A stretch of DNA of 64,000 nt, from contig NC_092066.1 in NCBI RefSeq assembly GCF_039877785.1, positions 5,187,152 to 5,251,151 on the forward strand, read 5' to 3'. Every line of letters starts with the position of its first letter. Within the stretch, counting starts at the first letter, position 1. Shown here in pieces: positions 38,091 to 59,722 of this stretch. The notes below the pieces were generated by a model. The model searched no databases. It had not been told where the DNA came from and saw only the letters and a list, made by a program, of their open reading frames with translations. The DNA is from Chaetodon trifascialis. Taxonomy: Eukaryota. The position numbers were made by a program, and so were the translations under genes.

Positions 38091-40377
38091 GTATGTACGT
38101 TATTTAAAAATTAAATTTTTTTTGTCGCTCGAAAGGTCAATGTGACATAACGCTACCAGTTAGCTGGTAGCTAGTGTTAGCATTGCAGGCATAGATTGAG
38201 TCGATGTACCAGTAAGTTACGTGTGCGTGATCTCCGTACAGGAAATTACAGTAAAAACAAGTGTGCCAGTAACGCGATTACACCTAGAAAATGCCCAAAT
38301 GTTTTGTTAAATCGTTATCGAAAAAAAGTTATTAATGTTTGCAATGCAGTCCTGTTTTGTAAGCATGTACAGTACGCATGCGCAGCGCTCTGGTTGTCAT
38401 GCTCTGTGTGCAGACAACCGATTGAATTCAATACACTGTGTTTGCATACATATTAAAATGGCACAATCGTTATTCTGTATTAGTAGAATTAGGGTAAATA
38501 TAACCCAGACTGTCTTTTCTCTCATCCGTATTTATAGTAACTGGTCAGTGTCAGATTCTGTGTTTCTTCCGTTCGTGTGTATATTTCTCTATATTGTCCT
38601 GTTTGCAGGAGGGGGATCTGGCTTTGTGGGCCGTGAGCTGAGTCGCCTGCTCAAAGATAAAGGTCATGAAGTTACAGTGATATCTCGACAGCCTGGTCCA
38701 GGAAAGATAACATGGGTATGATCTCAGGTTAACTCAGATTTGCGGTCAGACAGAAGGGCCCAAGGTCATTTCTCATCTTGAGTGACTCCTGAGTCATCAG
38801 CATTTGTATTTATTTTTTAATCTCAAATGTCTGTCGAGTTTGTGAATTCCCCCATTTTGCTGCCTTGCCGGTCACAGTACTTGTCTCCAAATTCAGAGTA
38901 AATTGTATATTCCTGTGCCTCCTCTGTGCTTCTGCAGGGTGAGTTGGAGTCTAACGGGCTTCCACCATGTGAGGGCGCTGTCAACTTAGCTGGAGAGAAC
39001 CTGATGAACCCGCTACGATGGTGAGCAATAAATACATAGTGCCTGAGTGCAGGTACATGCAGCCACAAATGGTCAAAAGTTTGTGGACATTCCTGTTCAA
39101 AATTGTGGTCTTGGGCTGAGGTTTTCATGCCCTTCAACCCAATCAAACACCTTTGGGATGCAATGAAACACTAAAGCAAGCTGGGCCTCACTGCCACCAT
39201 CCGTGACTGACAACGCATGCTCAGTGTGCTTCAATGGAAGCAAATCCCTGCAGCCAGATCAGGCACAGAGTGAGTGTTGCTCTTTTAATGAAGCTGGATT
39301 TTCCCCTGGTCTGTCTTAAATGTGTCTTCAGGTGGAATGAAAGCTACAAAAAGGATCTGTTCTCCAGTCGTATCGACACTACCAAAACTCTCGCTCGAGC
39401 CATTTCTGCTTCCTCGAGTCCTCCTCGCTCCTGGGTCCTGGTTTCAGGTGTAGGTAAGTCTCTGCTTAATGACAAAACTAATAACATTCTGATTTGGCGC
39501 CAGTACAAAGTCAGACCACACAAACTCACAGATAGTAAGAGCAGTGACATCAATTATTGTGTACTTCTTACTTTGTTTTTTGCTGCACAGCTTGTTACAA
39601 GCCCAGTCTGACAGCTCAGTACACAGAAGACAGTGAATGGACTCCATTTGACCTCCTCTCCAGACTTGTGAAGGAGTGGGAGGCCTCTGCACTTCTTCCT
39701 GACGATGTGGCAAAAACCACCAAACAAGTTGTCATCAGGCCTGGTATGTAACAAGTGATTATTTCACTTTAAGTTGAAAATCCTGGCAGTTTGATGCCCA
39801 GTAACCACGGCAAGGACAATAAAATGAAAATGTAGATGTTTCAATAATACTTTTCATCTTTGAATGATTTATCATTCTTATGCACTGAAAACCTTGAGAG
39901 TACTTTATTTTGGTGATCTTACATTCCTACCTCTGTCCACCAGGGGCAGTACTGGGCCGCGATGGTGGTGCCATGAAGCAGATGCTGCTGCCTTTCTGGC
40001 TCGGCCTCGGGGGCACTCTGGGGTCCGGAAGTCAGCCGTTTCCCTGGATCCACGTCTCGGACCTGGCGGGGATCATCGTCCACGCCCTGGAATCCCCCGC
40101 TGCTGCCGACGCTCCCTCCCCTTCACCACAAGTGTTCAACGGCGTCGCGCCTGCTCTGAACACCAACTACGAGTTCACGAAAGAGATGGGCCGGGTCCTG
40201 AGGAGACCCACCATTTTTCCTGTGCCTGGCTTCGTCTTGAACACCTTAATGGGCTCTGAGAGGGCCGTGGTCCTCGTGCAGGGCCAGAATGTCATACCAA
40301 AGAGGACTCAAGAGGCCGGATTTCAGTACAAGTACCCGGACTTGAAATCAGCCCTGAAACAGATTGTTGGCAGTTAA
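38075..40377 (+). CDS. sdr39u1: Epimerase family protein SDR39U1 (NAD-dependent epimerase/dehydratase fold) gene span, 6 coding exons, about 304 aa. Exons: 38075-38090, 38609-38715, 38938-39020, 39332-39453, 39591-39743, 39944-40377.
   Basis: [41 protein letters not shown] matches human MRVLVGGGTGFIGTALTQLLNARGHEVTLVSRKPGPGRITW. AVNLAGENLMNPLRW, WVLVSGVACYKPSLTAQYTEDS, VLGRDGGAMKQMLLPFWLGLGG and SGSQPFPWIHVSDLAGII all match human. The summed exons give an integer 305 codons. Confidence 0.85.
38609..38715 (+). CDS. sdr39u1: sdr39u1 exon 2: Rossmann GxxGxxG motif.
   Basis: Acceptor gtttgcag, donor TGG|GTATGA. Encodes [35 protein letters not shown]. Confidence 0.85.
38938..39020 (+). CDS. sdr39u1: sdr39u1 exon 3.
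   Basis: Acceptor tctgcag, donor ATG|GTGAGC. Encodes GELESNGLPPCEGAVNLAGENLMNPLR(W). Confidence 0.8.
39332..39453 (+). CDS. sdr39u1: sdr39u1 exon 4.
   Basis: Acceptor tcttcag, donor TAG|GTAAGT. Encodes WNESYKKDLFSSRIDTTKTLARAISASSSPPRSWVLVSGV. Confidence 0.8.
39591..39743 (+). CDS. sdr39u1: sdr39u1 exon 5.
   Basis: Acceptor tgctgcacag, donor CCTG|GTATGT. Encodes ACYKPSLTAQYTEDSEWTPFDLLSRLVKEWEASALLPDDVAKTTKQVVIRP. Confidence 0.8.
39944..40377 (+). CDS. sdr39u1: sdr39u1 terminal exon.
   Basis: Acceptor ctctgtccaccag. Encodes GAVLGRDGGAMKQMLLPFWLGLGGTLGSGSQPFPWIHVSDLAGII...QGQNVIPKRTQEAGFQYKYPDLKSALKQIVGS*. Confidence 0.85.
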
Positions 40378-44400: not shown

Positions 44401-46132
44401 ATCGAGCAGGATAAATCACCAGCTACAAGCTCCAAAATGTAACTGCAGAGAAGAGTTCATGAAACCCTGTCGCCCCATTCTGAGCCTGATACTCTGAGAT
44501 TTTGTGACAGTGAAATGAATCCTTGTATGCGAGAACAGATAAAAGCAAGTGTTACTTCAGAGGAGTCCAGTGATAGGTGTTTCTTCTGAGCTCTGAAAGC
44601 ACCTTCTTCCTGATGCGATCCTGAAGCACTTGTACGTCTACATCTGCAACACAAGGTGAATTTAGTTTGCTGCTGCATCTTATCATCTCCAAAGATTTAG
44701 GTTTATTTGTCATATGCACAGCAATTACAGTGAAGCAGCTGCTGGCAATTAAATTCTTGTTCTTAGGCTTCCTTTAACAAAGAAATTCATCCAAGTAAAA
44801 TTAGAGATGAGAATAGACATAAATTGTGCAATAGTTACAATTTAAAATTAAAAACATATCAATTAAAATATTATATAAAATATCATACTGGTGCACAGTA
44901 GGGATGAACAGGTGATGCACAGGAAAATACATATTGTGACGGTTTAATAGGTTGTAAGCAGCAGTGAAACAAATGGAAATATTCTTTGCAGTCATGACAG
45001 ACATCCATGTGTCACCCACCTCCACTGCTTTCCATTGCTTTCTCCCAGAGTTGCTTCTCCAGGCTCACAGCTTTCTGCCTCAGAGTAAAATCATCGACTG
45101 CTCGCTTTCTGCTCCACAGGAAGTTTGTGAGGGCCTGAATGCGGCCAGTCATCCGATTCACCTGAGCGCCTGCAAGTGGAGAAAATGAACAATCGCACAG
45201 CATTTTGACTCATTTCAAGACCAGCAAAGACACCGACTGATGACCACATTAAAAATTTAACACACTGAGAATGATCGAGCGTGCAGCCGTCTGGAGCTCC
45301 ACAGGTAGGTGCAGCGTTTTCAGGTTGGTCACACCTGGGTGCTTCCTGTGGACTTCTCCTTTCAGGAAATCCACCTGGGACTGTGGGTGTGCAACAGCAC
45401 TCATTCCCTGAGGATGAAAAATAAAAACAAATGTTTCTTTACAACTTCTTTGAGCTTCAGCTATTTAACAGTAACTAATCTCATTCTGGTGGTTTTAGAT
45501 TCAACTAAAATAATAAACAGACAAAAAATACCATTGGACAGTTTGAAAAACAAGATTTTTGCATTCAACTTTAGTCTGTAGGCTGTCAAAGCATATCTTA
45601 TATTCATATTCATTTATGTCCTCTCTGATTAGCTCACAGTCTGAACTTGTGCTGATAGATTTAAGGCAATTTTACCTCTACAATTTTTGAGTTTTGAAAA
45701 TGCAGTTACAGGAAATTCACAGTCATGGTATATATTCCTATTACCATATATAATACCTGCAAGCATATACATATTGTGATTTAATTGTGATTAAAAGACT
45801 TCATCTGTATTAACCACCCCTTTAATTCGCAGCTTGTCGGGGTTGCAGAATATATTTCCCAGTGAAAAACTACGTGTTAGTTACAAGTAAGTTCACAGGA
45901 GAAATGTGCTAAATTAATTGACATGAATACTAAATTTACAGCTATATCAGCTTTTCTCTATTAAACTAACTAAACTATACTCAATTTGCTCTTTTAACAG
46001 CCTGTCTGTCTGACCTCCATGGTAAAGATGCTGCGTTCAATGACAGTCACAGACTGGGCTCACCGTGCACATCATCCTCACGATGGACGCCCTCTGACAG
46101 AGGACACAAGCTCCATAAGTCCGTAACGCCAT
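41384..46132 (-). CDS. mettl17: Methyltransferase-like protein 17, mitochondrial (Rsm22-family SAM-dependent methyltransferase) gene span, 14 coding exons, about 437 aa. Exons on the minus strand: 46064-46132, 45335-45407, 45020-45169, 44556-44643, 44272-44353, 44010-44083, 43837-43931, 43667-43737, 43254-43361, 43026-43094, 42889-42939, 42696-42788, 41737-41933, 41384-41477.
   Basis: Colinear with human METTL17: [30 protein letters not shown] versus [30 protein letters not shown]; [37 protein letters not shown] versus [38 protein letters not shown]; SAM motif [14 protein letters not shown] versus LMDFGSGTGSVTW; [19 protein letters not shown]; [17 protein letters not shown] (identical); [19 protein letters not shown]; [10 protein letters not shown]; [41 protein letters not shown]. 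The N-terminus [23 protein letters not shown] is presequence-like. The summed exons give an integer 438 codons. Confidence 0.8.
41737..41933 (-). CDS. mettl17: mettl17 exon 13.
   Basis: Acceptor tttcccttcag, donor CAGCAG|GTGAAG. Encodes [65 protein letters not shown]. Confidence 0.8.
42100..42240 (+). mobile_element. Partial copy (5' region, opposite orientation) of the same SINE family, in mettl17 intron 12.
   Basis: ctgcgatcggctggcgaccggtccagggtgtaccccgcct...ccgaaagggataagcagcatagaaaatggatgg is the near-exact reverse complement of 57481-57600. Confidence 0.6.
42696..42788 (-). CDS. mettl17: mettl17 exon 12.
   Basis: Acceptor ttgtttttctag, donor AGGG|GTAAGG. Encodes [31 protein letters not shown]. 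Confidence 0.75.
42889..42939 (-). CDS. mettl17: mettl17 exon 11.
   Basis: Acceptor ctctatctccag, donor TCCG|GTGCGT. Encodes [17 protein letters not shown], matching human GKEKSPLDPRPGFVFAP. Confidence 0.75.
43026..43094 (-). CDS. mettl17: mettl17 exon 10.
   Basis: Acceptor ttcttggtgtag, donor AAAG|GTATTC. Encodes [23 protein letters not shown]. Confidence 0.8.
43254..43361 (-). CDS. mettl17: mettl17 exon 9.
   Basis: Acceptor cggcttccag, donor CCTG|GTTTGT. Encodes [36 protein letters not shown]. Confidence 0.8.
43667..43737 (-). CDS. mettl17: mettl17 exon 8.
   Basis: Acceptor gtgttgagtag, donor TAAG|GTAAAA. Encodes [24 protein letters not shown]. Confidence 0.75.
43837..43931 (-). CDS. mettl17: mettl17 exon 7.
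   Basis: Acceptor tcttctcccacag, donor AAAG|GTACGA. Encodes [31 protein letters not shown]. Confidence 0.8.
44010..44083 (-). CDS. mettl17: mettl17 exon 6: SAM-binding motif I.
   Basis: Acceptor tttttatcttttcag, donor TCTG|GTTAGT. Encodes [24 protein letters not shown](W). Confidence 0.8.
44272..44353 (-). CDS. mettl17: mettl17 exon 5.
   Basis: Acceptor ctgggtttcag, donor GAG|GTAATG. Encodes [27 protein letters not shown]. Confidence 0.8.
44556..44643 (-). CDS. mettl17: mettl17 exon 4.
   Basis: Acceptor tgtgttgcag, donor CTGAA|GTAACA. Encodes [29 protein letters not shown](K). Confidence 0.75.
45020..45169 (-). CDS. mettl17: mettl17 exon 3.
   Basis: Acceptor ccacttgcag, donor GGAG|GTGGGT. 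Encodes [49 protein letters not shown]. Confidence 0.75.
45335..45407 (-). CDS. mettl17: mettl17 exon 2.
   Basis: Acceptor tttttcatcctcag, donor CCAG|GTGTGA. Encodes [24 protein letters not shown](G), matching human FLQKRPHRQHPG. Confidence 0.7.
46064..46132 (-). CDS. mettl17: mettl17 coding exon 1: putative mitochondrial targeting peptide.
   Basis: ATG at 46132-46130, donor ACG|GTGAGC. Encodes [23 protein letters not shown], which is Arg-rich with no acidic residues. Confidence 0.6.
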
Positions 46133-46531
46133 ATCTTCGGTGGCTTCTTGTGTTCAAACGGCTTTAATATTAACTTTGACTTCCATCCACACCTCGGTGA
46201 GGACGAAGGCACGTTCGTATAGTTTAACAATCCTTCAACAAAATAATTCCGACTATTGGTTAGTGCGGAACCTTTATTCCATGGTTTTGTTCCACATGAA
46301 AGAAAGCACAGACAGGAGTGCTCACTCTGCCTTCGTTTCCGGTGTTGTGTCCGGGTACAAGCCGAGAATACCTCTTGAGAATATAAATTTGGCATAGTGT
46401 GGACAAAATTACGTCTAAACGCAAAGTTTTAAAATTAAAGCTAACTTTTGAAATTTATTACAGGTTTGCACAAAAATCGTTTCTATGGTAACGGAAAAAA
46501 GTCTTCACGCTTTCGATGCGCATGCGCTAGG

Positions 46532-46565
<34 letters not shown>

Positions 46566-46696
46566 GGCTGCGTGATTCATCCTCGTTTTGAGCGACACCG
46601 GCCAGGAAATTGTGGAGGGGAAAGTTTTTCCGCCTTCTTTGTTGTCACTGTGTCCCTTTTATTTCTGTATTTATCTGGTTCTTTTCATAAACCGCC
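46133..46696. promoter_or_regulatory. Putative bidirectional promoter between the head-to-head mettl17 (-) and parp2 (+) genes. It contains a perfect NRF1 palindrome GCGCATGCGC at 46518-46527 and a T28 run at 46535-46562.
   Basis: The mettl17 ATG is at 46132 and the parp2 ATG at 46697, with no intervening ORF. tgcgcatgcgct matches the NRF-1 consensus YGCGCAYGCGCR. The homopolymer T run lies immediately downstream. Confidence 0.55.
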
Positions 46697-46769
46697 ATGA
46701 GACGCACAAGAAGTTCGAGAAATAAAAATCAGAGTGCACAAGAAAATGAAGAAGTCCAGTCGAAAACAG
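46697..46769 (+). CDS. parp2: parp2 exon 1.
   Basis: ATG at 46697, donor ACAG|GTTGGT. Encodes the basic N-terminus [24 protein letters not shown](G/V). Confidence 0.75.
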
Positions 46770-49700
46770 GTTGGTGCTTGTTTCCCGCTGGAAAGCTAGC
46801 TTGACAGGAGAGCTAACCGCTGTATCTACGTCACTTGCGGACTCGACTCGGGACATGTCTCGGCAGAGAAGCTTAGGGAAATAAATGTGATGCACTTAAG
46901 GTCCGTGCAGCATTTACTGTTGTTGCTGTTACTGTAGGATGCAGTCTTTTTTCTGCCTAAGGTGTCATCGATAACTGTTACAGGTTGAGCTTGTTCGTAA
47001 AAACCGTTAACGTTAAAGCTGTCAACTGTTGACACTGTCAACCGTTTATTACCCAAGTTATAGAGCTCTTGGATGCCTCGGGATGGAATTGGTATTAAGG
47101 ATATCAAACACGCACAGATATCCATGTTTATTAAGTGGAACCACTGTAATACAACAGCTCTGCAATGAAGGCTGGAGGTTATGATCCGTTTCTGTCGAAA
47201 GCAGACGTGTTGATACACATTTCTTGTCGTTTGGGGTGCTGTTGAATCAGAACAGGCATGCATTCATTCAGCAAAGCAATATGTAAGTGGTTTAAAAGAT
47301 AAACACATTCATTTCGAATTGCTAGTTGAAATTACAGTATTTGAATCATTACAGTGGTATTAGAGTTTGTACAACCCTGCTCTCACTGTGCTCAGTGTGG
47401 CAGTGGAAAGGAGATGAAGGACAGTGGGAAGCATACCCGCCTTCAGCCTGCGCCTTGTTGGACTCAGCCGTCTCTTCAGGAGAAACCTCTGTCACTCTGC
47501 CTCTGGGCTCTGGGACGTCCTATGAAGTGGACTTGAAGAAGATGGTCCAGATTAATTCTGTCACCAAGTACAAGAGGAAGATTCGCTCGCAGACAGTAAA
47601 AGCAGGTATGTGTGTTTTATGTGTTAAACTTGTGTTTTATTTTCAGTTGTGTCATTTGATTTCTGTCATCCTCCCTGCTGGGATTATCCCACTTATCATA
47701 ATTACTAAAACCTTGCTTCCAGAAAAATTGGAGCACTATAAAACATAAATATAACAGATTGTGATAATTTGCTAATCCCTTTTTAACATAAAAATATATT
47801 TACTGTTTTACCTCATCAACTTCATTGATTTTTCGTCTTTTATTCTCTGTTCAGAAAGTGTGAATGTTGCTGTTGATTTGACTCCTCATAATGGGACACC
47901 AGTTCAAGTTAAAGAGGAAGAAGAGGAGGCGAAGGAGCAACCTGTAGCTAAGAGGAAGAGAGGGCAAAACAAGAGCCAGACAAAAACTGAAGAAACGGCC
48001 ACAGAGGCAACAAAAAGTGAAGGTACCATAGATCTAATTTTCATGTATGTTGTCTATGTAGTAAGACAGGTTAAAGGGACATTGTATTACCCGTGCTTCA
48101 CATTCGATGTCAGTTGACCTTATTAATGTTTTTTCTCTGCTTCTTTGGATGTTTAGCAGAGGTTGTGAAGACGGTGGTCATGAAAGGAAAAGCTCCAGTC
48201 GACTCCGAGTGCAAAGCCAAACTTGGAAAGGTGCAGTATCTACATCCACACAAGATGCGAAACTCATGTTTCTGACAAGTTCTGTCAGCCACACCTTTGT
48301 CCTGTGATGTCCTTGTGTTCTTGTTTTAACCTACACTTAACACCTGTGCTTTGTATGAACTCGTTCCTAAATCACTGTTGTCTTTATAAACAGTATAAAA
48401 CATTGTAAAAAACACAGTGAAGAAGGAAATGAGAAGTTTACAGTACATTTTTAATTTCCTGCTTTCAAGATCAGGTACATTTACCGTCATATTTATTATT
48501 GATTGTTCAATTTCGCTTACAGGCTCATGTTTACAGTGAAGGTGATGATGTTTACGACGTGATGCTAAATCAGGTAAAATATTTAAATTCAAAAGCTGTC
48601 GTCTGCATTTCCATACTGAGTGGTGACTGACTGACTAAAATAGTAATTGTAAATATTTTGATAGATATTCCAATCACAGTCAGCAGTTTCTTGAATGTGA
48701 TCTGTGAAAACAGAAATCGAGTGACGGCTTGAAAAGTATTTTATTTTCATTTTACATTTTGATTTGTGGGAAAGTGAGTCGATTTTTAGACTTGCAGCAA
48801 ACGCTTTGCGTCTTATCATGCAGACAAATCTTCAGTTTAACAACAACAAATACTACCTGATCCAGCTGTTGCAAGACGACAGCTCCAAGGCTTACAGTGT
48901 GTGGATGCGATGGGGCAGAGGTGAGTTTATGTGAGCATATTTGATGTGTGTGTGTGTATTTACACAGGAAGTTAACACAAGCTGCACTTTGGAAGCTCTT
49001 TTCTAAAATGTAAACTAACTTATTAGATATATTTTGGCGGTTTCTCTCTTGTTTGTTTCAGTGGGAAAAGTGGGTCAGAGCAGTCTGTCATCTTGTGGTG
49101 GAGACCTACTGAAAGCAAAAGATATCTTCAAGAAAAAGTGAGATTGTGCAGTTAAAAAAAAAAAAAAATTCCAGATGTCTCACATTGAGGTGAGTTCAGT
49201 AAAATTCTGAAACTTGTTTTTGCCACAGGTTCTTTGACAAAACCAAGAATGAGTGGGAACACAGAGTGAGTTTTGAGAAAGTAGCTGGAAAATATGACAT
49301 GGTGTTCATGGACTACAGCACAGATGAAAAGGCAAGGAGCAATGCACAGCCAACGACCTATAAACCTCCTCAATAGCTTCGTAATAAGGAGTTGGCAGCT
49401 TGGAAATAGCTGCCATTGAACTGAAGTTGAGGTCTGTCAGTATGAACATTAATATATTTCACTGGTACAGGAGGAAAACCAGACCACAGTGGATGCAGCA
49501 CCTAAAAAGAAGAACTCCCAGCTGGATGTGAAGATCCAGTCGCTTCTGGAGCTCATCTGTGACATCAAAGCCATGGAGGAGTGTGTGCTGGAGATGAAGT
49601 TTGACACCCGGAAAGCTCCTCTTGGTCAGTCAAAATCAAAGCAGCAGAACGGGGAATTTGTCCTGTTATACTCTTTCATTTTATATTGAGCATATATCCT

Positions 49701-52456
49701 TTATGCATATTTAAGTTGCTACAGTTTGATCAAAGATTCAATAAAACAAGATACTCGAGTCATAATTTTAGCTGCAGTTGTGCCACCTGACTGTGTTAGG
49801 AGATTCAGCTGGTGACAAACATGTAAATAGCATTTCAAACCTTTCGTGACATCACATTTCAAATTCTTTTTCTTTCTACCTGCAGGCAAGCTGACCACCG
49901 AGCAGATCAATGCAGGCTACGCGGCACTGAAGAAAATTGAGGATTGTTTGAAGAAGAAGGGCAGCAATCGTGAGCTGCTGGAAGCATGCAACCAGTTCTA
50001 CACCCGCATCCCTCATGACTTTGGGTAGGGAATGTGTGGCTGTATTGTTAGAGAGATGCACTAATGCTGTTGGAAAAGAGATGTCTGAATCGATTGTACT
50101 TTATTTTGTGCTAACTTAAAGATATAATCCTCCAGGTTGAAAACTCCTCCAATCATCCGGACAGAAGATGAGCTGAAGGAAAAAATAGCACTGTTGGAGG
50201 TAAAAAGGGCTCTCTGCTAATGGATGTCTTCACTTAAATCTGTGGTCCATACTATAATATCTATGTTTTTTTAATCGTATTTCTTTTTTCCAGGCTCTGA
50301 GTGACATTCAGATAGCAGTGAAAATGGTCCAGTCCAGTGAAAAGAGTGACGAGCATCCTCTGGACAGACAGTATCGCTCCCTCCAATGCCAGCTGCAGCC
50401 TCTGGACTCCAGCAGCAACGACTACAAGGTCAGTGTTTGGCTTCTCATACACCGACGGTAAGTCAGTCAGGATGTTCAAAACATTCACTTTGCTCTTGGC
50501 TCACTAATATTCACAGTTTGTAGGCTGATCTGTAGGTTCTTGGTGTGTTAGACTGTCAAGGCATATGAATGAAACGTAATGCTTTTCTTGAAAACTTTCT
50601 TCTTCTCTGTGTGAAGGTGATAGATAAGTATCTACAGTCCACTCACGCCCCCACCCATTCTGACTACACCATGACCATCCTTGACATCTTCTCAGTGGAC
50701 AGAGACGGGGAGAGCAACAACTTCCTCTCACAGTTACACAACAGGTAAGACACAGTGGGCCTAGTGTTTGTATAGACTGTCAGTGCACCTGGAGGCTCAT
50801 AGCAGCAGATGTTCATGTTCCCTCAGATGTTGAACTGTGGTTCCATATTTTCCTGTATTACACCTGACAATGATGTAAATAAAAACAAGGTGCTGTCTCA
50901 CATAACCCATGTCTGTCTGCCTGCTTGCCAGGACTCTGTTGTGGCACGGGTCCCGTTTGTCTAACTGGGTCGGCATCCTCAGTCAGGGGCTCCGAGTGGC
51001 TCCACCTGAAGCTCCTGTCACAGGTTACATGGTAGGATGGATGGCAGAATGAAATTATCTATAAACTACAAGGAGTTTTTAAACCTATATTTTATTCCAG
51101 CATTAACAATTTCCCTGTTTCTCCTTCGTCTAGTTTGGAAAAGGTGTCTACTTTGCTGACATGTCTTCAAAGAGTGCAAACTACTGCTTTGCCAATCAGC
51201 ACAACCACATTGGCCTGCTGCTGCTGTGTGAGGTGAGATCATCATTGGCAAAGAACAGTCCTCTAAAAAAGTTTGAAGTTGAATGTGCGACGTGTTTGAG
51301 GATGCATACATGCTCTGTGTATGACGGCATTTGCAATTATGCTCTCTCTTACCTGGGAGGCAGCGTGTGTTTGGTGAAGGTGTTTCAGTCACCAGTTGAG
51401 CTAATTTCTGTGGTTCTCTGATTTGATGATTTACTCAGGATATATCTTTGTATGGAGCTGTTGTAATGCTTTTCTAAATACCTGATAAAGGTCGAGCACA
51501 TGAAACTTCATGAATAAGTAAATAGTTTGTCGGCTGTTGAGGTAAGCTTAAATTTCTTGACTTATCCTCCGAAGTTCCAGTAGTTGGTGCTTAGGGGCAG
51601 TTTATTTCATGTCCTGTTCACCTGCCCGTACAAGTCCACAACTTGTGTTAACAATAAAACCAACAGCACCTGAACATCATGACACCTGTTGGGCCTAAAT
51701 GTGGTGCAGAAGTGTTTCAACGTCCCTGCTGTATGTCTGTGTGGTCGCAGGTCGCTCTGGGAGACTGTAACGAGCTGCTGGATGCAGACTACGAGGCCAA
51801 CAATCTGCCTGATGGAAAACACAGCACCAAGGGCCTGGGACAGACCGGACCTGACCCCAAAAACTCTGTCACGCTGTTAGTCTGTCTCGTTACGCTGATA
51901 CAGTTCATACAGGCCAAACATTGATTTAACTGTGCTCACTGTTACACAACAAAAATCATCCCCTTATCTGAGAGGGGGACTTTGTTAATTACATTAGCAA
52001 AGAAAAATTCAGGTTGATGAGCACAGAGTGGGAATAATTGCTGGTTTACTTTGTTCTCTGTAATTGGAAACAAAATCTTTGGGTTTTGAACTGATGGTTG
52101 CTAAAAACAGGACTCTAGGACAAATGGATCTGGACTCTACGGATGCACGGCTGCTAATCCTTTTTGACAAATACTCAGTAAACAGAAAACAGTACTAAGA
52201 CAATTAAAACATGTAAAAGTATTGTAAAGAAAAGGCATTTTGTATTAAAACCACCTGATTGGTCCTTAAATAAACGTATCCCTCTCTCTTTCTCAGGAAT
52301 GGTGCGACTGTGCCGATGGGGCCGGGGGTGAAGACGGGGGTGGGTAAGCGTAACAGTTACTCCCTCCTCTATAATGAGTTCATCGTTTACAACCCTGCCC
52401 AGATCCGCATGAGGTACCTGCTGCGGATCAAGTTCAACTACTCTTCACTGTGGTGA
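46697..52456 (+). CDS. parp2: Poly(ADP-ribose) polymerase 2 gene span, 17 coding exons, 651 aa, with an additional N-terminal WWE-domain exon. Exons: 46697-46769, 47396-47605, 47855-48022, 48157-48230, 48523-48573, 48824-48920, 49062-49137, 49228-49330, 49471-49624, 49886-50024, 50136-50199, 50294-50428, 50617-50744, 50932-51031, 51134-51232, 51751-51875, 52297-52456.
   Basis: Colinear with human PARP2 from [16 protein letters not shown] and [17 protein letters not shown], through the WGR segment [38 protein letters not shown]. It continues through [23 protein letters not shown] and [13 protein letters not shown], then the catalytic core [70 protein letters not shown], and ends [28 protein letters not shown]. 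The summed exons give an integer 652 codons. Without the 210-nt WWE exon the product is 581 aa (human 583). Confidence 0.9.
47396..47605 (+). CDS. parp2: parp2 exon 2: WWE domain. It is 210 nt with phase 1 at both ends, so skipping it preserves the reading frame.
   Basis: Acceptor tgtgctcag, donor GCAG|GTATGT. Encodes [70 protein letters not shown]. The W-x-W...W-x-x-Y pattern followed by a Y-x-hydrophobic D-L/F...Q-x-N...R/K-R-x-I-R block is the WWE-domain signature. Human PARP2 has no such region. Confidence 0.7.
47855..48022 (+). CDS. parp2: parp2 exon 3: basic/acidic linker with a KRKR nuclear-localization-like stretch.
   Basis: Acceptor ctctgttcag, donor GAAG|GTACCA. Encodes [56 protein letters not shown]. 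Confidence 0.75.
48157..48230 (+). CDS. parp2: parp2 exon 4.
   Basis: Acceptor ggatgtttag, donor AAAG|GTGCAG. Encodes [25 protein letters not shown], matching human KGKAPVDPECTAKVGK. Confidence 0.85.
48523..48573 (+). CDS. parp2: parp2 exon 5.
   Basis: Acceptor tttcgcttacag, donor TCAG|GTAAAA. Encodes [17 protein letters not shown]. Confidence 0.85.
48824..48920 (+). CDS. parp2: parp2 exon 6: WGR domain.
   Basis: Acceptor cttatcatgcag, donor AGAG|GTGAGT. Encodes [32 protein letters not shown]. Confidence 0.9.
49062..49137 (+). CDS. parp2: parp2 exon 7.
   Basis: Acceptor ttgtttgtttcag, donor AAAAA|GTGAGA. Encodes [25 protein letters not shown]. Confidence 0.85.
49228..49330 (+). CDS. parp2: parp2 exon 8, ending at a GC donor (GC-AG intron).
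   Basis: Acceptor tgccacag. Encodes [35 protein letters not shown]. There is no GT between AAG and the in-frame TAG at 49373; AAG|GCAAGG matches the GC-donor consensus. Confidence 0.8.
49471..49624 (+). CDS. parp2: parp2 exon 9.
   Basis: Acceptor cactggtacag, donor CTTG|GTCAGT. Encodes [51 protein letters not shown]. Confidence 0.85.
49886..50024 (+). CDS. parp2: parp2 exon 10: helical regulatory domain.
   Basis: Acceptor tctacctgcag, donor TTTGG|GTAGGG. Encodes [46 protein letters not shown]. Confidence 0.85.
50136..50199 (+). CDS. parp2: parp2 exon 11.
   Basis: Acceptor taatcctccag, donor GGAG|GTAAAA. Encodes [22 protein letters not shown]. Confidence 0.85.
50294..50428 (+). CDS. parp2: parp2 exon 12.
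   Basis: Acceptor tcttttttccag, donor CAAG|GTCAGT. Encodes [45 protein letters not shown]. Confidence 0.85.
50617..50744 (+). CDS. parp2: parp2 exon 13.
   Basis: Acceptor tctctgtgtgaag, donor ACAG|GTAAGA. Encodes [42 protein letters not shown]. Confidence 0.85.
50932..51031 (+). CDS. parp2: parp2 exon 14: start of the catalytic domain.
   Basis: Acceptor ctgcttgccag, donor CATG|GTAGGA. Encodes [34 protein letters not shown]. Confidence 0.9.
51134..51232 (+). CDS. parp2: parp2 exon 15: nicotinamide pocket (GKGVYFAD..S motif).
   Basis: Acceptor ctccttcgtctag, donor TGAG|GTGAGA. Encodes [33 protein letters not shown]. Confidence 0.9.
51751..51875 (+). CDS. parp2: parp2 exon 16.
   Basis: Acceptor gtggtcgcag, donor CGCT|GTTAGT. 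Encodes [41 protein letters not shown]. Confidence 0.85.
52297..52456 (+). CDS. parp2: parp2 terminal exon. The stop codon is at 52454-52456.
   Basis: Acceptor ctctctttctcag. Encodes [53 protein letters not shown]. An AATAAA lies at 52903-52908. Confidence 0.9.
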
Positions 52457-52902
52457 GGCTGTGCTAACAGTGCAGCTGTGAGATTGGCTGTCTACAGAGC
52501 AGGGGTGATATCTCACGCAGCCACTCGTCGTGTGCAGTTAACACTGTTCAGATCTTGGCTTTGGGGATAGGATGTTCAGCCGATAAACAGTTAAATATTT
52601 TTCAAGCAAAAATGCCAAAAGTTACCGCTGCTTTTCTTTGTCATATGTGCCATCTTTGGGTTTTGAACTTTTGGTCGAATGAAACAAGCTATTTTAATAT
52701 GTCAACTTGGGCTGTGGAAAACTACAGCTGGCGGTTTTCACTATTTTCTGACATTTTATAGGCAAAACAAATCGGCAGATTGATCGTTACTTGCAGCCCT
52801 ACAGTGATATCCACAGTGAGGCTCGGCAGATCCAAAGTTCATACAACTCACGCATTATTTAAATGGGAATGTGAATTTTGAATTCAAGTAAGAAAAACAC
52901 CA

Positions 52903-52908
52903 ATAAAA
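52903..52908 (+). terminator. parp2: parp2 candidate polyadenylation signal AATAAA, about 450 nt after the stop.
   Basis: caccAATAAAacagc. Confidence 0.4.
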
Positions 52909-53590
52909 CAGCTTCTACGTTCTCCAGTGACACGACGATTTCATCTTTGCTCTTTTTGAGTCAGAAAATGATGTTGGACCCTGTAAAATGACGGTGAATG
53001 CTGCTTTAGAGTGAGGCTTCGGGTTTGGTGAAGGTAAAACATGAGGATGGATCCATGTGATACAGTAAGAAGAAAATATGTTGAATATTTTGCACTATTT
53101 TTTGTCCCTGTTGCTTTTTATTGTCCACGTCCTTTAAACAGTGTAAGCTGTATGTTATTGCATGTGGAATAGCATTCATTCATTATGTTTTGATTTCTGT
53201 TGCGGTGCTTTATGAAACATGAACGGCCTTATTGACCTACTGGACTATCACTCTCAGCCTTTCATGGGTAAACGCAATGATTTGGAGGATCTTTAGGCAG
53301 GTTTGATGTGAGCATTTATACTGAATAATTACCTAAATGTTATTGAATGTTTCCTGTTTTATGTCAACAATCTCGAAATTAAATGAAACAACGCAGTACA
53401 ACAATTTTTCATACTGATTTTTATTTGTGTAAAACTGAGACAAAGACAGGACTCTATCAAAACACTGATAATCCATATAATTTCAGTATATACATAATAA
53501 AAGTAATAATAAAGGACATTTTTGTTGTGGGTACAGTTTGGAGTGTCAGTCTGTGTGCAGTAATGTGTTTGTGTACATGCGTGACGTGCA

Positions 53591-53725: not shown

Positions 53726-56700
53726 CTGAGACAGACAGACAGGAAGGGAGGGAGAGGATGAGGAGGAGGAGAACGTTTAGGACAGGGTGAGAGATTAGCA
53801 CCAGATAAGAGCACATCATGACATCCTCTGTTTTGACATGTCACAGCAGGAAGAGCATGCGTGAATGATAAGTGAATGCTGGTTGAATTCCATTCGGCTG
53901 CTTCAGTTTCAGCGTCGTGGTGTTGTTTGTGCTGGCTCACGGTCACACTGGGACACTTCAGTAGAGCAAAGCCATCGTTAATATTATGAGCAACACCCGT
54001 GCTGTTCCCACTGTGACACTGAGCCTACGTTTACACGTAGCAGGGTATTTTGGAAAACGGATATTTTGGCCCCTCGAGCACATCATAACTGTGCCAAACC
54101 TATGGGTGCAAGTGTAAACATAGGTCGCTCACATGATGTTAAGTATTTTCAGTCGCATGTTGTGACGTTTCGGAACCTAAAACGCTGTTTAACCCAGTTT
54201 ACACGCCGACAAATAACTGCCGTTTTCAGAAATCTCCACTTTGGCCAGAGTTTTTAAGAATGATCATTTTCCGTGACTCTGAATCAAGTCTGTGAAAGCG
54301 TGTTGGTCTCATTTAAAATGCTGCTGTGGATGTTACTTTGTGATTGGATGAATTCCTCAAAAATCAAACTTATTAAATCCGCTCTCTGGCTTCTGGAGCT
54401 TTGGCCGTTGCACTCGCTCAGACACTTTATTTGAATGTTTTACAGCTGTGAGCAGCTCCTCCATTTCCTCTGTGCATTAAAGGCGCATTCAGAAATCAGC
54501 CATATTTAGTAGACGACTGTCTCATTTGAGTACAATTCATTTTCTCACTTTTCCCGAAAAAAAAAACCATGCCTAGAATCTGGATGTCGGATGGATTTGG
54601 GACATGCTGCGTATCTAACTTCCACCATTTAATTGAGTGCATCCACTCCTTTCTGCTAACAATCCCACAATGCAATCTGTCACATTTTATTCACCCAGCA
54701 GCCACTGTTGTGCTGCTCTACACCTGCCAATGAACCATGAGAATATCTTTTACATAAGGAGTGATGAGCGAATGAACAAGCCTGCCAGTAGGTGACGATA
54801 AAGTCTACATCAACCATACCAGAGAAGAACACTCTGAACATAGCGGACAAGGCCTCAGACATTATTCACAGGTGTTTTCATCTATTTTGCCAGATTAAAT
54901 CTCTTTTCAAGGCTGCCATCGTATGCACACTGTTCATTCGTCATCACTTTTCTGTTGAAGCTGTCAAAGACAGCACCTGTGTGGGAGGGCAGGGCCTTTA
55001 ATGCGTTTGATGAAGAAACTTATTCCACCGCTGTTCTACACTCCTTTACTAAAACCAAGTCACAAGGTCGGGGTATGTTGTTTTTTGTTAACTTACCAGT
55101 GAATACAGCAGAGCGCCCAGACATCCATAGGCGACATCAGCGATGTAGGAGTAGTAGAAAGTGCAGAAGAACCCGAACATGATCACGTCCACAGCCAGAA
55201 TCAGCAGAACACCATACCAAACGGTGAAATCAAAACGAGTCTGCAAGGAACACAAACAGACTGGGTGAGTGCTGGACAGCGTCCAGAGATTTCATTCTAA
55301 AGCTTTTCCATATGTAACATCCCCATAATTCAAAACAGATCAAAGTATTGATTCATCAGTTTAGTAGTTTTCATTTTTATCTTTTCCCAAATCATTTCAA
55401 GTTCTTTACATTAAAGACAACAAGTATCAAGACAGTACACGACACACATTTACATTTTCACATATTTCTACATTTTTTTTTTTTTTTTAACACTTATTTT
55501 TTTGTTTTTACCATAAGACAACACACAAACGAACAAACAAAAGAGGTCTGGGACAATATGTGATAGAATCTATAGGTAAAATAAAAAGGGAAAACAGTCA
55601 CAGGTACATATTATCAAGTTCAAGAAGTGTCCAGGAGATACAGCAGTCACTCATTGTCTATTCGGTAACAACAGTCCCACTTGTTCCACAATATATCTCC
55701 CTTCTCTTTTTGTAGTCGGAGGTTAAAAGTCATTTTCTCCATCAGACGGATAGAGTTGATCACACTGGTAAGGGCAGTTATAGTGGGGGGGCTCTTTTGA
55801 AGCCAGCATTTAGTTATTGTTTTCTTACTGGCCACAGTAAATATCTTCAGGAGATATCTGTCGCTTTTACAGAGGTCTTGGGGGATGCGCCCAAGGCACA
55901 GCACATTGAAAGAGAGGCCAATGTCCAGGTCCAGGATTTTCAATATCAAGCTACTCACTCCCCTCCAAAAGGGCTGAACCCGCGGGCACAGCCAGAAGAT
56001 ATGCGCATGATCTGCCCTATCAGAACCACATTCCCTCCAGCAAAAGTGTTGTATCCCACTTGATTTTGATTTTTGGTAAGGGGTAATAAAAAAACGAATC
56101 AAAACTTTCCAGTAGAAGTCTCTCCAGAAGAATAAACTTGTAGTAGTAGACCGGGTTCCCCAAGCATTGCTCCACATATCCTCAGTTATTGCAATGTTTA
56201 ATTCCTTTTCCCAGCGTTCCTTTATATAACCTGTTGAAGATTTATTCATTGAAATAAAAGCCTTGTATAGGTTACCCACGATGCCTTTGGTGTTCTTTAA
56301 GTTATAAGCATCAATAAATACCCCAATTATTTTGGAGTGCTCCAGAGAGTCATTACTCCTAACTTCTCTTAGAAAAAAGTTGCGGATCTGTAGGCACCGA
56401 AAGAAATCTCCTTTGTCCAGCTCATAAGTCATATTTCTACATTTTTATCATTGGATTTTTCTCATTTCTTTGCTAATACTTCATTTTTTCATTTGCACTT
56501 CTATTTCTACTCTTATTCTGGTTATTATTCTTCATTGCACACAAGCCTCGTAGTACAGCCTTGAATAAGCCACCCTGCAGCTTAGCAGCAGCAGCTGGGT
56601 TCCTAACGCAGTGTTTAACACAGGATTTGCACATAATGACTCAAACTCAACACTTTTTTTTTTTTTAAAATAAGGCCTAGAAATAAAAAGGGAGAAGCTG

Positions 56701-59700: not shown

Positions 59701-59722
59701 GGCGGTCCGCTGCATCAGACAT
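53591..59722 (-). CDS. TMBIM (transmembrane BAX inhibitor motif / Lifeguard) family protein, GRINA/FAIM2/TMBIM1-like, gene span, 6 coding exons, about 279 aa. Exons on the minus strand: 59553-59722 (or 59542-59722 under the micro-intron model), 59444-59493, 58526-58726, 57237-57365, 55097-55240, 53591-53725.
   Basis: SSFDDKTVRRGFVRKVFSILTLQLLFTFSVV matches FAIM2 FSWDDQKVRRVFVRKVYTILLIQLLVT. CCKSFSRRHPWNIVGL matches GRINA CCGDFRRKHPWNLVAL. VTLSLSYMVGTVASFHDTTAVVITMGATLAISVAIIAFSAQ, TRFDFT...YGCLGALLYSL and FLMIDCQLLMGMMSYRLDPEEYITAALTIYLDIVLIFLYLLGRR* match the TMBIM C-terminal motif D-T-Q-L-L-G...LSPEEY...LNIYLDII. The N-terminus carries PPxY motifs, as in TMBIM1/GRINA. Which paralog this is cannot be decided without a search. 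Confidence 0.75.
55097..55240 (-). CDS. TMBIM exon 5: TM5 to TM6.
   Basis: Acceptor ttccttgcag, donor CACTG|GTAAGT. Encodes TRFDFTVWYGVLLILAVDVIMFGFFCTFYYSYIADVAYGCLGALLYSL. Confidence 0.85.
55476..56432 (-). mobile_element. 5'-truncated non-LTR retrotransposon (L1/Tx1-like LINE) 3' fragment in TMBIM intron 4: the C-terminal part of ORF2 plus 3'UTR, with a minus-sense poly(A) seen as a plus-strand T run at 55476-55490.
   Basis: The 261-aa minus-strand ORF 55647-56432 ends in the LINE ORF2 C-terminal Cys/His module ...QHFCWRECGSDRADHAHIFWLCPRVQPFWRGV.... An A/T-rich 3'UTR and a homopolymer tail follow. Confidence 0.6.
57237..57365 (-). CDS. TMBIM exon 4: TM3 to TM4.
   Basis: Acceptor ttgtgccgacag, donor ACAG|GTCAGA. 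Encodes VVVTLSLSYMVGTVASFHDTTAVVITMGATLAISVAIIAFSAQ. Confidence 0.85.
57477..57829 (-). mobile_element. Full-length tRNA-derived SINE inserted in TMBIM intron 3, flanked by a perfect 13-bp target-site duplication ccagattgtttat at 57464-57476 and 57830-57842.
   Basis: The tRNA-like end ggatcaaaccggcaacc (reverse complement of the T-arm GGTTCGAATCC region) lies at the high-coordinate end. The identical 13-mer direct repeats abut both element ends. A second partial copy elsewhere in the window shows the sequence is repetitive. Confidence 0.65.
58526..58726 (-). CDS. TMBIM exon 3: TM1 to TM2.
   Basis: Acceptor ttttctgtgcag, donor GACTG|GTGGGT. Encodes VFSILTLQLLFTFSVVCVFTFSSVVKDAVQTNLWAYLSSFIVFAVVAIALNCCKSFSRRHPWNIVGL. 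Confidence 0.85.
59444..59493 (-). CDS. TMBIM exon 2.
   Basis: Acceptor ctccactcacag, donor AAAG|GTTTGT. Encodes (P)SSSFDDKTVRRGFVRK with phase 1 in and phase 0 out. It lies only 59 nt below exon 1. Confidence 0.7.
59553..59722 (-). CDS. TMBIM coding exon 1: Pro-rich N-terminus with three PY motifs (PPGY, PPSY, PPPY). The 3' boundary is unresolved.
   Basis: The ATG at 59722-59720 lies 1 nt after an acceptor (cctccag|aATG). Encodes MSDAADRLISKETQDPPGYDASSPPPPPPPSYHQQPPPYSAAPAMYPPPKVEITTSG. The strong donor GG|GTATGAG at 59552 is out of phase with exon 2. Confidence 0.55.

What the first reader, a model, noticed from the sequence alone, without database searches (positions are those of the whole stretch)
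47396..47605. Extra WWE-domain cassette exon in parp2 (WWE-WGR-PARP architecture)
Between the basic N-terminal exon and the linker exon there is a 210-nt exon encoding a canonical WWE domain ([68 protein letters not shown]). Mammalian PARP2 has no WWE domain. Among human PARPs, WWE domains (iso-ADP-ribose/PAR readers) occur in PARP11-14 and in RNF146, and are not known in the DNA-break-activated PARP1/2/3 clade. The exon is symmetric (phase 1 in, phase 1 out, length divisible by 3), so inclusion or skipping keeps the frame. Without it the product is 581 aa, almost exactly human length (583). A PAR-reader module fused to a PAR-writer could confer feed-forward recruitment to existing PAR chains. 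Isoform regulation of such a property would be functionally significant.
Basis: partly seen in the sequence, partly recalled or inferred. Interest (0 to 1): 0.65.

Follow-up and report, generated by a model that had tools for sequence, protein, structure and literature searches.

The report
Ancestral WWE-domain exon of fish PARP2
The 210-base exon is real and encodes an ADP-ribose-binding WWE domain in a fish parp2 gene, but it is the normal, always-seen second exon of fish PARP2 and an ancient animal feature already recorded in databases and in a 2014 paper, so it is ordinary.

Summary
Observation confirmed. Window 47396..47605 (+) is an AG/GT-flanked, phase-1/phase-1 exon. Its 70 residues match Pfam WWE (PF02825, E 5.8e-18, 65.5 bits against a cut-off of 21.1). 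The predicted fold superposes on the HUWE1 and TRIP12 WWE domains at about 1 Å rmsd. It is exon 2 of a complete 17-exon parp2 gene (46697..52456) whose 651-aa product reads WWE-WGR-PARP_reg-PARP.

- A spliced transcript contig from a closely related fish (98% protein identity) contains the exon with exactly the predicted junctions.
- All 120 best database homologues carry the WWE domain. They are teleost PARP2 from RefSeq and UniProt plus 22 transcript-derived clusters.
- No variant lacking this exon was seen.
- Outside teleosts, PARP2 of a ray, coelacanth, frogs, platypus, oyster, centipede, flatworm and sponge has WWE domains, usually two in tandem. So the domain is ancestral and was lost in therian mammals. 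It is not an "extra" fish cassette.
- Perina et al. 2014 (PMC4245714) already reported WWE domains at the N-terminus of non-mammalian PARP2.

The ligand-contact residues are invariant in 84 teleosts, so ADP-ribose/PAR binding is likely, though untested. Novelty: already known. Interest: low.

The parts
46592..46769 (+). parp2 exon 1: 5'UTR (transcript alignment starts at 46592) plus CDS 46697..46769. It encodes [24 protein letters not shown] plus the first base of codon 25. This is the basic N-terminal tail.
   Evidence: Sequence; gene model; collinear with transcript L001 positions 1-178 at 99.4%.
47396..47605 (+). parp2 exon 2, the finding. It is 210 nt, phase 1/1, and encodes residues 25-94, a single WWE domain.
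   Evidence: Pfam PF02825 at E 5.8e-18 and 6.9e-17 in the full protein. PDB sequence hits to DTX1, HUWE1, TRIP12 and RNF146 WWE domains. AF2 model pLDDT 86.8. Foldseek TM 0.82-0.88 and rmsd about 1 Å to TRIP12 and HUWE1 WWE domains. L001 positions 176-388 align at 97.2%.
47855..48022 (+). parp2 exon 3, 168 nt, also phase 1/1. It encodes an acidic and basic low-complexity linker containing the [11 protein letters not shown] motif (likely NLS, inferred).
   Evidence: It is the least conserved region in 84 teleosts, with mean column identity 0.70.
48157..48230 (+). parp2 exon 4, with a NAGNAG tandem acceptor at 48155-48159. This is the start of the WGR region.
48523..48573 (+). parp2 exon 5 ([20 protein letters not shown]).
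   Evidence: This exon is missing from some annotated variants.
48824..48920 (+). parp2 exon 6 (WGR).
49062..49137 (+). parp2 exon 7 (WGR).
49229..49331 (+). parp2 exon 8, followed by a GC-AG intron (donor AAG|GCAAGG).
   Evidence: The junction is confirmed by L001.
49471..49624 (+). parp2 exon 9 (start of the PARP regulatory domain).
49886..50024 (+). parp2 exon 10 (PARP_reg).
50136..50199 (+). parp2 exon 11 (PARP_reg).
50294..50428 (+). parp2 exon 12 (end of PARP_reg).
50617..50744 (+). parp2 exon 13 (catalytic domain).
50932..51031 (+). parp2 exon 14 (catalytic domain; contains His496 of the H-Y-E triad).
51134..51232 (+). parp2 exon 15 (catalytic domain; contains Tyr530).
51751..51875 (+). 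parp2 exon 16 (catalytic domain).
52297..53390 (+). parp2 exon 17. The CDS runs to the stop codon at 52454-52456 and contains Glu626. The 3'UTR extends to about 53390.
   Evidence: L001 positions 1902-2966 align to 52297..53390.

Best explanation
The segment is the constitutive second coding exon of a percomorph teleost parp2 gene. It encodes one WWE domain, an ADP-ribose/poly(ADP-ribose)-binding module. The domain sits between a short basic N-terminal tail and a low-complexity linker, ahead of the WGR, regulatory and catalytic domains.

Shown here:
- The exon, its splice junctions in mRNA, the domain identity and the fold.
- Invariance across 84 teleosts of the residues that contact adenine and the proximal phosphate in solved WWE-ligand structures.
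- The same WWE-WGR-PARP layout, usually with two WWE domains, in PARP2 from sponges to platypus.
The architecture is therefore the ancestral animal PARP2 state. Teleosts keep one WWE domain, and therian mammals have lost both and retain only the basic disordered N-terminal region.

Inferred mechanism: the WWE domain binds ADP-ribose units on proteins already modified at DNA lesions, mainly by PARP1. This helps to recruit or hold PARP2 there and so favours secondary elongation or branching of existing chains. Human PARP2 does the same job with its disordered N-terminal region, which binds PAR and is required for branched-chain synthesis (Chen et al. 2018). The fish domain has Trp at the position of RNF146 Tyr107 and Asp at the position of RNF146 Arg110. 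It therefore resembles HUWE1 and TRIP12, which prefer ADP-ribose to iso-ADP-ribose, more than the iso-ADP-ribose-specific RNF146.
For: - Exon and frame.
- Pfam WWE at 65.5 bits alone and 62 bits in the full protein, together with WGR, PARP_reg and PARP.
- Fold: AF2 pLDDT 86.8 with six strands and one helix. The top 24 Foldseek PDB hits are all WWE domains. TRIP12-ADP and HUWE1-ADPr match at TM 0.82-0.88, rmsd 0.9-1.0 Å.
- mRNA inclusion: Logan contig L001 (SRR28040511, 2984 nt) carries an uninterrupted 651-aa CDS at 98% identity. It aligns collinearly to all 17 exons, with junctions at 46769|47396 and 47605|47855.
- Constitutive and canonical: 120 of 120 best homologues carry PF02825+PF05406+PF02877+PF00644. 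These include 22 clusters seen only on 2-4 kb Logan contigs, which must be spliced cDNA. Genomic ORFs from about 15 other fishes show the same exon ending in ...K.G followed by GT.
- Purifying selection: mean column identity is 0.87 for the WWE exon, against 0.70 for the linker and 0.76 for exon 1.
- Ligand residues: W28, W35, Y67, Q76, N78 and R85 are invariant, and T81 is at least 90% conserved, in 84 teleosts. By the alignment these correspond to HUWE1 W1619, W1627, Y1658, Q1667, N1669, R1676 and T1672, which are among the contacts named by Munzker et al. 2024 (PMC11269756).
- Ancestry: local HMMs find WWE-WWE-WGR-REG-CAT in many cluster representatives. These are named as frog, platypus, oyster, centipede, sponge, nematode, flatworm, electric ray, coelacanth, snail and tick.
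- Literature: Perina et al. 2014. Human N-terminal region binding PAR: Chen et al. 2018.
Against: - No binding or recruitment experiment exists for any PARP2 WWE domain in the searchable literature, so the function is inferred from conserved residues only.
- One HUWE1 phosphate contact (N1674) is Tyr in the fish protein.
- The pocket that gives RNF146 its iso-ADP-ribose specificity is not conserved (Trp for Tyr107, Asp for Arg110). Binding to internal PAR units, as opposed to terminal or mono-ADP-ribose, is therefore uncertain.
- Clustering at 90% identity could hide a rare isoform lacking the exon inside a cluster, so 'constitutive' means 'no skipping seen' rather than 'skipping excluded'.
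Confidence: 0.85

Rival explanations
1. One reading: the WWE exon is a regulated cassette exon, so fish make both WWE-plus (651 aa) and WWE-minus (581 aa, human-like) PARP2 isoforms with different PAR-dependent behaviour.
For: The exon is symmetric (phase 1/1, 210 nt) and skipping keeps the frame, giving 581 aa. Clusters at 90% identity may hide shorter members (a limit).
Against: No WWE-less PARP2 appears among the 120 best hits, although such an isoform from a close species would score high enough to be listed. The shorter variants inspected lack exon 1 or exon 5, never exon 2. All 22 transcript-derived clusters and L001 include the exon. The acceptor has a good pyrimidine tract, the donor is CAG|GTATGT, and the flanking introns are short at 626 and 249 nt. 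Exon 3 is equally symmetric, so symmetry is not diagnostic.
Confidence: 0.07
2. The domain is a structurally intact WWE fold that no longer reads ADP-ribose. It would serve as a protein-protein interaction or autoinhibitory module, as proposed for some PARP-associated WWE domains.
For: Not all WWE domains bind PAR. The RNF146 distal-phosphate pocket is not conserved (Asp31 at the Arg110 position, Trp28 at the Tyr107 position). In tandem-WWE PARP2 proteins the first domain's consensus lacks the phosphate-binding Tyr.
Against: The adenine-binding Gln, the stacking Trp, and the proximal-phosphate Tyr and Arg are invariant across 84 teleosts. The closest structures are ligand-bound HUWE1 and TRIP12.
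Confidence: 0.1
3. The ORF is not part of parp2. It would belong to another transcript or be a chance or pseudo-exon.
Against: The spliced transcript L001 joins it to exons 1 and 3, and hundreds of annotated orthologues contain it.
Confidence: 0.01

Closest known systems
PARP2 of non-mammalian animals (WWE or WWE-WWE, then WGR, PARP_reg, PARP), as noted by Perina et al. 2014 (PMC4245714) and annotated in RefSeq and UniProt
   Same: Same gene, same domain order and same exon. 120 of 120 teleost homologues share it. This window is simply one more orthologue.
   Different: Teleosts have one WWE domain. The ray, coelacanth, frogs, platypus and many invertebrates have two in tandem. The teleost domain scores equally against profiles of the first and the second tandem domain.
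HUWE1 and TRIP12 WWE domains (PDB 6MIW, 8RD7, 9BKS)
   Same: These are the best structural matches (TM 0.82-0.88, rmsd about 1 Å, 33-40% identity). They share Trp at the RNF146-Tyr107 position, the Tyr, Gln, Asn, Thr and Arg ligand contacts, and acidic residues in the first beta-hairpin.
   Different: Those domains sit in HECT E3 ligases and couple ADP-ribose reading to ubiquitination. HUWE1 Asn1674 is Tyr83 in the fish protein.
RNF146 (Iduna) WWE domain (PDB 3V3L)
   Same: Same fold (TM 0.83). Tyr144, Gln153 and Arg163 have equivalents in the fish protein (Y67, Q76, R85).
   Different: The iso-ADP-ribose-specific contacts Tyr107 and Arg110 are Trp28 and Asp31 in the fish protein. Sequence similarity is weak (E 0.04).
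Human PARP2 N-terminal region (NTR)
   Same: Same position in the protein, ahead of WGR. It binds PAR and is needed for PARP2-dependent branched PAR synthesis (Chen et al. 2018, PMC6089979), which is the function inferred for the WWE domain.
   Different: The human region is a short, basic, disordered segment with no WWE fold. The fish protein has both a basic tail (exon 1), a basic linker motif and the folded WWE domain.
Clade 3 WWE-PARPs (PARP7, 11, 12, 13, 14) and plant RCD1 (clade 2)
   Same: A WWE domain lies N-terminal to a PARP catalytic domain.
   Different: Those enzymes are mono-ADP-ribosyltransferases or inactive. They lack WGR and PARP_reg and have variant catalytic triads. The fish protein keeps H496, Y530 and E626 together with WGR and PARP_reg, so it is a clade 1 DNA-dependent PARP.

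Membership tests
WWE domain (Pfam PF02825) | Profile-HMM score above the curated gathering threshold | tested here: met
   65.5 bits against a cut-off of 21.1, E 5.8e-18, covering profile positions 2-66 of 67. In the full protein the score is 62.0 bits.
WWE domain (Pfam PF02825) | Fold: a half beta-barrel of six strands covered by one alpha-helix | tested here: met
   The AF2 model has pLDDT 86.8, strands at 2-4, 10-12, 31-36, 40-45, 50-53 and 59-63, and a helix at 15-26. The top 24 Foldseek PDB hits are all WWE domains, the best at TM 0.85-0.88 and rmsd 0.9-1.0 Å. This is a prediction, not a solved structure.
WWE domain (Pfam PF02825) | Conserved Trp residues and ADP-ribose contact residues (adenine-binding Gln, stacking Trp/Tyr, phosphate-binding Tyr and Arg) | tested here: met
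   W28, W35, Y67, Q76, N78 and R85 are invariant in 84 teleost PARP2 proteins. They align to HUWE1 W1619, W1627, Y1658, Q1667, N1669 and R1676.
WWE domain (Pfam PF02825) | Actual binding of ADP-ribose, iso-ADP-ribose or PAR | not testable with these tools
   This needs ITC, fluorescence polarisation or pull-down with recombinant domain. No published test on any PARP2 WWE domain was found.
RNF146-type iso-ADP-ribose-specific WWE | Tyr107, Arg110 and Trp114 pocket for the distal ribose and phosphate | tested here: not met
   The fish protein has Trp28 at the Tyr107 position and Asp31 at the Arg110 position. Only the Trp114 equivalent (W35) is kept.
PARP2 orthologue (clade 1, DNA-dependent PARP) | [quoted passage not shown] | tested here: met
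   WGR at residues 186-265 (85 bits), PARP_reg at 300-430 (158 bits) and PARP at 444-645 (260 bits).
PARP2 orthologue (clade 1, DNA-dependent PARP) | Intact H-Y-E catalytic triad | tested here: met
   H496 (at least 90% conserved) and Y530 and E626 (invariant) lie in the motifs [15 protein letters not shown] and YNEFIVY.
PARP2 orthologue (clade 1, DNA-dependent PARP) | Best database matches are named PARP2, at high identity over the full length | tested here: met
   Identity is 77-98% over 96-100% of the query to RefSeq and UniProt 'poly [ADP-ribose] polymerase 2' entries from about 100 teleost species.
Alternatively spliced cassette exon | Length divisible by 3 with symmetric phase | tested here: met
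   The exon is 210 nt with phase 1/1, and the skipped product is 581 aa in frame. Exon 3 has the same property, so this is not diagnostic.
Alternatively spliced cassette exon | Transcripts or annotated isoforms both with and without the exon | tested here: not met
   Only forms including the exon were seen: L001, 22 transcript-derived clusters and all annotated isoforms among the 120 best hits. Rare skipping is not excluded, because no read-level RNA-seq was available.

The most novel reading that the evidence does not exclude
The PARP2 WWE domain is a working ADP-ribose reader that makes non-therian PARP2 a true reader-writer. It would be recruited and activated by PARP1-made ADP-ribose marks and would drive feed-forward elongation or branching. 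On this reading therian mammals replaced the folded reader with the PAR-binding disordered N-terminal region. A related possibility is that the single teleost domain is a hybrid of the two ancestral tandem domains, because it scores equally against profiles of both.
Probability: 0.4. Interest if true: 0.4.

Novelty: already known. Interest (0 to 1): 0.15.

Why it matters
As a discovery it does not matter much. The WWE-WGR-PARP layout of fish PARP2 is the standard annotation in RefSeq, UniProt and Pfam, and was pointed out by Perina et al. in 2014.

What remains of value is a small open question. Nobody appears to have tested what the PARP2 WWE domain does. Human PARP2 needs its N-terminal region to bind PAR and make branched chains. 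Fish, frogs, or even platypus could therefore offer a natural reader-fused PARP2 for asking how PAR-dependent secondary recruitment of PARP2 works, and why therian mammals dispensed with the folded reader. It is also a caution for people using zebrafish or medaka as models for PARP2 biology or PARP-inhibitor trapping, because the fish enzyme carries a module that the human one lacks.

Tried and rejected
- A homologue search with only the 150-aa N-terminus found 18 short hits: 17 ORFs from fish genomic contigs and one fragmentary Liparis PARP2 model. It found no full-length proteins. It was useful only for showing conserved exon ends. The full-length query was needed.
- I searched for a relic of a second WWE exon in introns 1 and 2 and upstream (window 46000..48200), using tblastn with ten WWE domains from tandem-WWE PARP2 proteins. 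Nothing better than E 0.03 turned up apart from exon 2 itself.
- I tried to assign the teleost domain to the first or second tandem WWE with separate HMMs. The scores were 79.5 and 76.2 bits, so this is unresolved.
- An Rfam scan of the whole window, asking whether an RNase P RNA gene sits next to parp2 as I recall for mammals (from memory, not checked here), gave no hits.
The Chelmon PARP2 protein (P0020) was not on record. So the species of the window was not identified. The closest named species is Chelmon rostratus at 92% protein identity.
- Six literature searches for a functional study of a PARP2 WWE domain found only the 2014 domain survey. Citarelli et al. 2010 list WWE only in PARP clades 2 and 3. 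Reber and Mangerich 2021 was not relevant.
- The human PARP2 sequence used to locate exons was recalled from memory and served only as a guide. All boundaries were then fixed from splice sites and confirmed by transcript L001.
Full report
**1. The observation**

Window 47396..47605 on the + strand is bounded by a good acceptor (a pyrimidine-rich tract followed by cag|TG) and a consensus donor (CAG|gtatgt). Only the frame starting at 47398 is open. It reads [69 protein letters not shown]. With the G left over from the upstream exon the first codon is GTG (Val), and the last G joins AA of the next exon. The 70-residue peptide matches Pfam WWE (PF02825) at E 5.8e-18 and 65.5 bits against a curated cut-off of 21.1, nearly end to end. 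It also matches the solved WWE domains of DTX1, HUWE1, TRIP12 and RNF146 by sequence.

**2. The gene around it**

I located the other exons by tblastn, using human PARP2 recalled from memory as a guide only, and then fixed every boundary from the splice sites. This gave a 17-exon model from the ATG at 46697 to the stop at 52454-52456. It encodes 651 aa with the WWE exon, or 581 aa in frame without it. Pfam finds four domains in the 651-aa product:

| Domain | Residues |
|---|---|
| WWE | 25-88 |
| WGR | 186-265 |
| PARP_reg | 300-430 |
| PARP catalytic | 444-645 |

The H-Y-E triad (H496, Y530, E626) is intact. Intron 8 has a GC donor and exon 4 has a NAGNAG acceptor.

**3. Is the exon spliced into parp2 mRNA?**

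The best database homologue (P0019, 651 aa, 98% identical) is encoded without interruption on a 2984-nt Logan contig from run SRR28040511. The gene spans 5.8 kb with 16 introns, so this contig must be spliced RNA. It aligns collinearly to all 17 exons at 96-100% identity (90.7% for the last exon with its 3'UTR). Block ends fall at 46769, 47393/47396-47605, 47852/47855-48022 and so on, with the 2-3-nt overlaps expected at junctions.

**4. Is it extra, lineage-specific or a cassette?**

No.
- Every one of the 120 best homologues carries PF02825 together with WGR, PARP_reg and PARP. These are PARP2 entries from RefSeq and UniProt for about 100 teleost species, from salmonids and smelt to percomorphs, most of them named 'poly [ADP-ribose] polymerase 2'.
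- Twenty-two of these clusters are known only from 2-4 kb Logan contigs that hold the whole CDS, so they are transcripts.
- The shorter entries I inspected lack exon 1 (alternative or miscalled starts) or the 17-aa exon 5, never the WWE exon.
- ORFs from genomic contigs of about 15 other fishes show the same exon ending in ...K-x-G followed by GT.
- Phase symmetry, the only argument for 'cassette', is shared by exon 3.

I therefore regard the exon as constitutive. Without read-level RNA-seq, rare skipping cannot be excluded.

**5. Distribution beyond teleosts**

I ran an exhaustive HMMER search of 1.84 billion cluster representatives with residues 1-279. I then scanned the hits with local HMMs for WWE, WGR, regulatory and catalytic regions. 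Many PARP2-like proteins have WWE-WWE-WGR-REG-CAT. Cluster look-ups name them as follows:
- Frogs: Leptobrachium, Ascaphus and Engystomops.
- Platypus: XP_028933514.1, 686 aa.
- Coelacanth and the electric ray Narcine.
- Oyster, the snail Bulinus and the centipede Strigamia.
- The tick Ornithodoros and the nematode Auanema, each with a single WWE match.
- The flatworm Macrostomum and the sponge Ephydatia.
- A turtle (Chelydra) PARP2 fragment also aligns across the WWE region.

WWE domains are therefore the ancestral state of animal PARP2. Teleosts retain one of two, and therian mammals lost both. 'Mammalian PARP2 has no WWE' holds only for therians.

No relic of a second WWE exon remains in this window. 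The teleost domain scores equally against profiles of the first and second tandem domains (79.5 and 76.2 bits), whereas genuine first and second domains discriminate at about 95 versus 47 bits. Its origin is unresolved.

**6. What is known**

I found no functional study of any PARP2 WWE domain in six literature searches. The architecture is already known, and its function is untested.

**7. How it probably works**

*Fold.* An AlphaFold2 model of the domain, built from a 24-sequence teleost alignment, has mean pLDDT 86.8 and the WWE topology of six strands and one helix. By Foldseek it superposes on TRIP12-ADP, HUWE1-ADPr and HUWE1 apo structures at TM 0.82-0.88 and rmsd 0.9-1.0 Å. The top 24 PDB hits are all WWE domains.

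*Ligand contacts.* Munzker et al. 2024 (PMC11269756) describe the conserved ligand contacts:
- a Gln that hydrogen-bonds adenine;
- a stacking Trp, which is Tyr in RNF146;
- a Tyr and an Arg on the proximal phosphate;
- in HUWE1, Y1658, N1669, T1672, N1674 and R1676 on the phosphates.

By the alignment, the fish equivalents are W28, Y67, Q76, N78, T81, Y83 and R85. In an alignment of 84 teleost PARP2 proteins, W28, W35, Y67, Q76, N78 and R85 are invariant and T81 is at least 90% conserved.

*Selection.* The WWE exon is under stronger constraint (mean column identity 0.87) than exon 1 (0.76) or the linker (0.70).

*Specificity.* The residues that give RNF146 its iso-ADP-ribose specificity are replaced: Trp28 stands at the Tyr107 position and Asp31 at the Arg110 position. 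This is the pattern in HUWE1 and TRIP12, which prefer ADP-ribose.

*Proposed role.* My best inference is that the domain reads ADP-ribose marks already laid down at lesions and helps to recruit or retain PARP2 for secondary elongation or branching. Chen et al. 2018 assign the same role to the PAR-binding disordered N-terminal region of human PARP2. The binding itself and its consequences are inferred, not shown.

**8. Verdict**

The sequence feature is real and correctly read. The claims that made it look interesting do not hold:
- 'Extra' domain and 'unknown in the PARP1/2/3 clade': contradicted by the evidence above.
- 'Regulated cassette': unsupported, with no skipped form seen, though not strictly excluded.

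It is the ordinary exon 2 of teleost parp2 and an ancestral metazoan feature. It is already annotated and published. The remaining interest is the untested function of this domain and its loss in therians.

Noticed in passing
window 49331-49333 (parp2 intron 8 donor): Intron 8 begins with GC (AAG|GCAAGG) rather than GT. The junction is confirmed by transcript contig L001, so it is a genuine GC-AG intron.
   Followed up: yes
window 48155-48160 (parp2 exon 4 acceptor): A tandem NAGNAG acceptor (TTTAG|CAG|AG). The window model and transcript L001 use the upstream AG, giving ...KSEAEVV... and 651 aa. Chelmon PARP2 (P0020, 650 aa) lacks the Ala, as if the downstream AG were used.
   Followed up: partly
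window 46535-46562: A 28-nt poly-T run lies about 30 nt upstream of where the parp2 transcript alignment begins (46592). An Rfam scan of the whole window found no RNA gene, so there is no RNase P RNA gene beside parp2 here. (From memory, not checked here, mammals have RPPH1 head-to-head with PARP2.)
   Followed up: partly
window 47396-47605 compared with P0141, P0142, P0145 and other tandem-WWE PARP2 proteins: The single teleost WWE domain scores almost equally against HMMs of the first (79.5 bits) and second (76.2 bits) WWE domains of tandem-WWE PARP2 proteins. True first and second domains discriminate at about 95 versus 47 bits. It could be either copy or a fusion. The first-domain consensus has Leu/Ile where the fish domain and second domains have the phosphate-binding Tyr.
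   Followed up: partly
P0142 (platypus PARP2, XP_028933514.1), residues about 35-177: A monotreme mammal keeps two WWE domains ahead of WGR in PARP2, so the loss is therian rather than pan-mammalian.
   Followed up: partly
window 4736-5617 (+): A single-exon 293-aa ORF with a MARVEL membrane-associating domain (Pfam E 2.2e-24). It is probably a MYADM-like gene.
   Followed up: partly
window about 13300-19500 (-): Proline- and serine-rich ORFs and an exon with a weak Rel-homology DNA-binding match ([25 protein letters not shown]; Pfam E 5.6e-4, below the cut-off). Together they suggest an NFAT-family gene on the minus strand.
   Followed up: partly
window 32008-32619 (+) and 38335-40377 (+): A rhodopsin-family GPCR ORF (7tm_1, E 8e-30), and exons of an SDR39U1-like epimerase-family protein (DUF1731, E 1.5e-19). 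Together with the NFAT-like gene and parp2, this looks like conserved synteny with human chromosome 14q11-q12. That comparison is from memory and was not tested.
   Followed up: no
window 55647-56432 (-): A 261-aa ORF with no Pfam match. Its sequence resembles the C-terminal part of a LINE-type retrotransposon ORF2, so it is probably a repeat remnant.
   Followed up: partly
window about 57000-59800 (-): Minus-strand ORFs encode a proline/tyrosine-rich N-terminus (PPPPPPSYHQQPPPYSAAPAMYPPP) and hydrophobic transmembrane segments. They resemble a TMBIM/Lifeguard (GRINA-like) gene downstream of parp2. The one fragment tested had no Pfam hit.
   Followed up: partly
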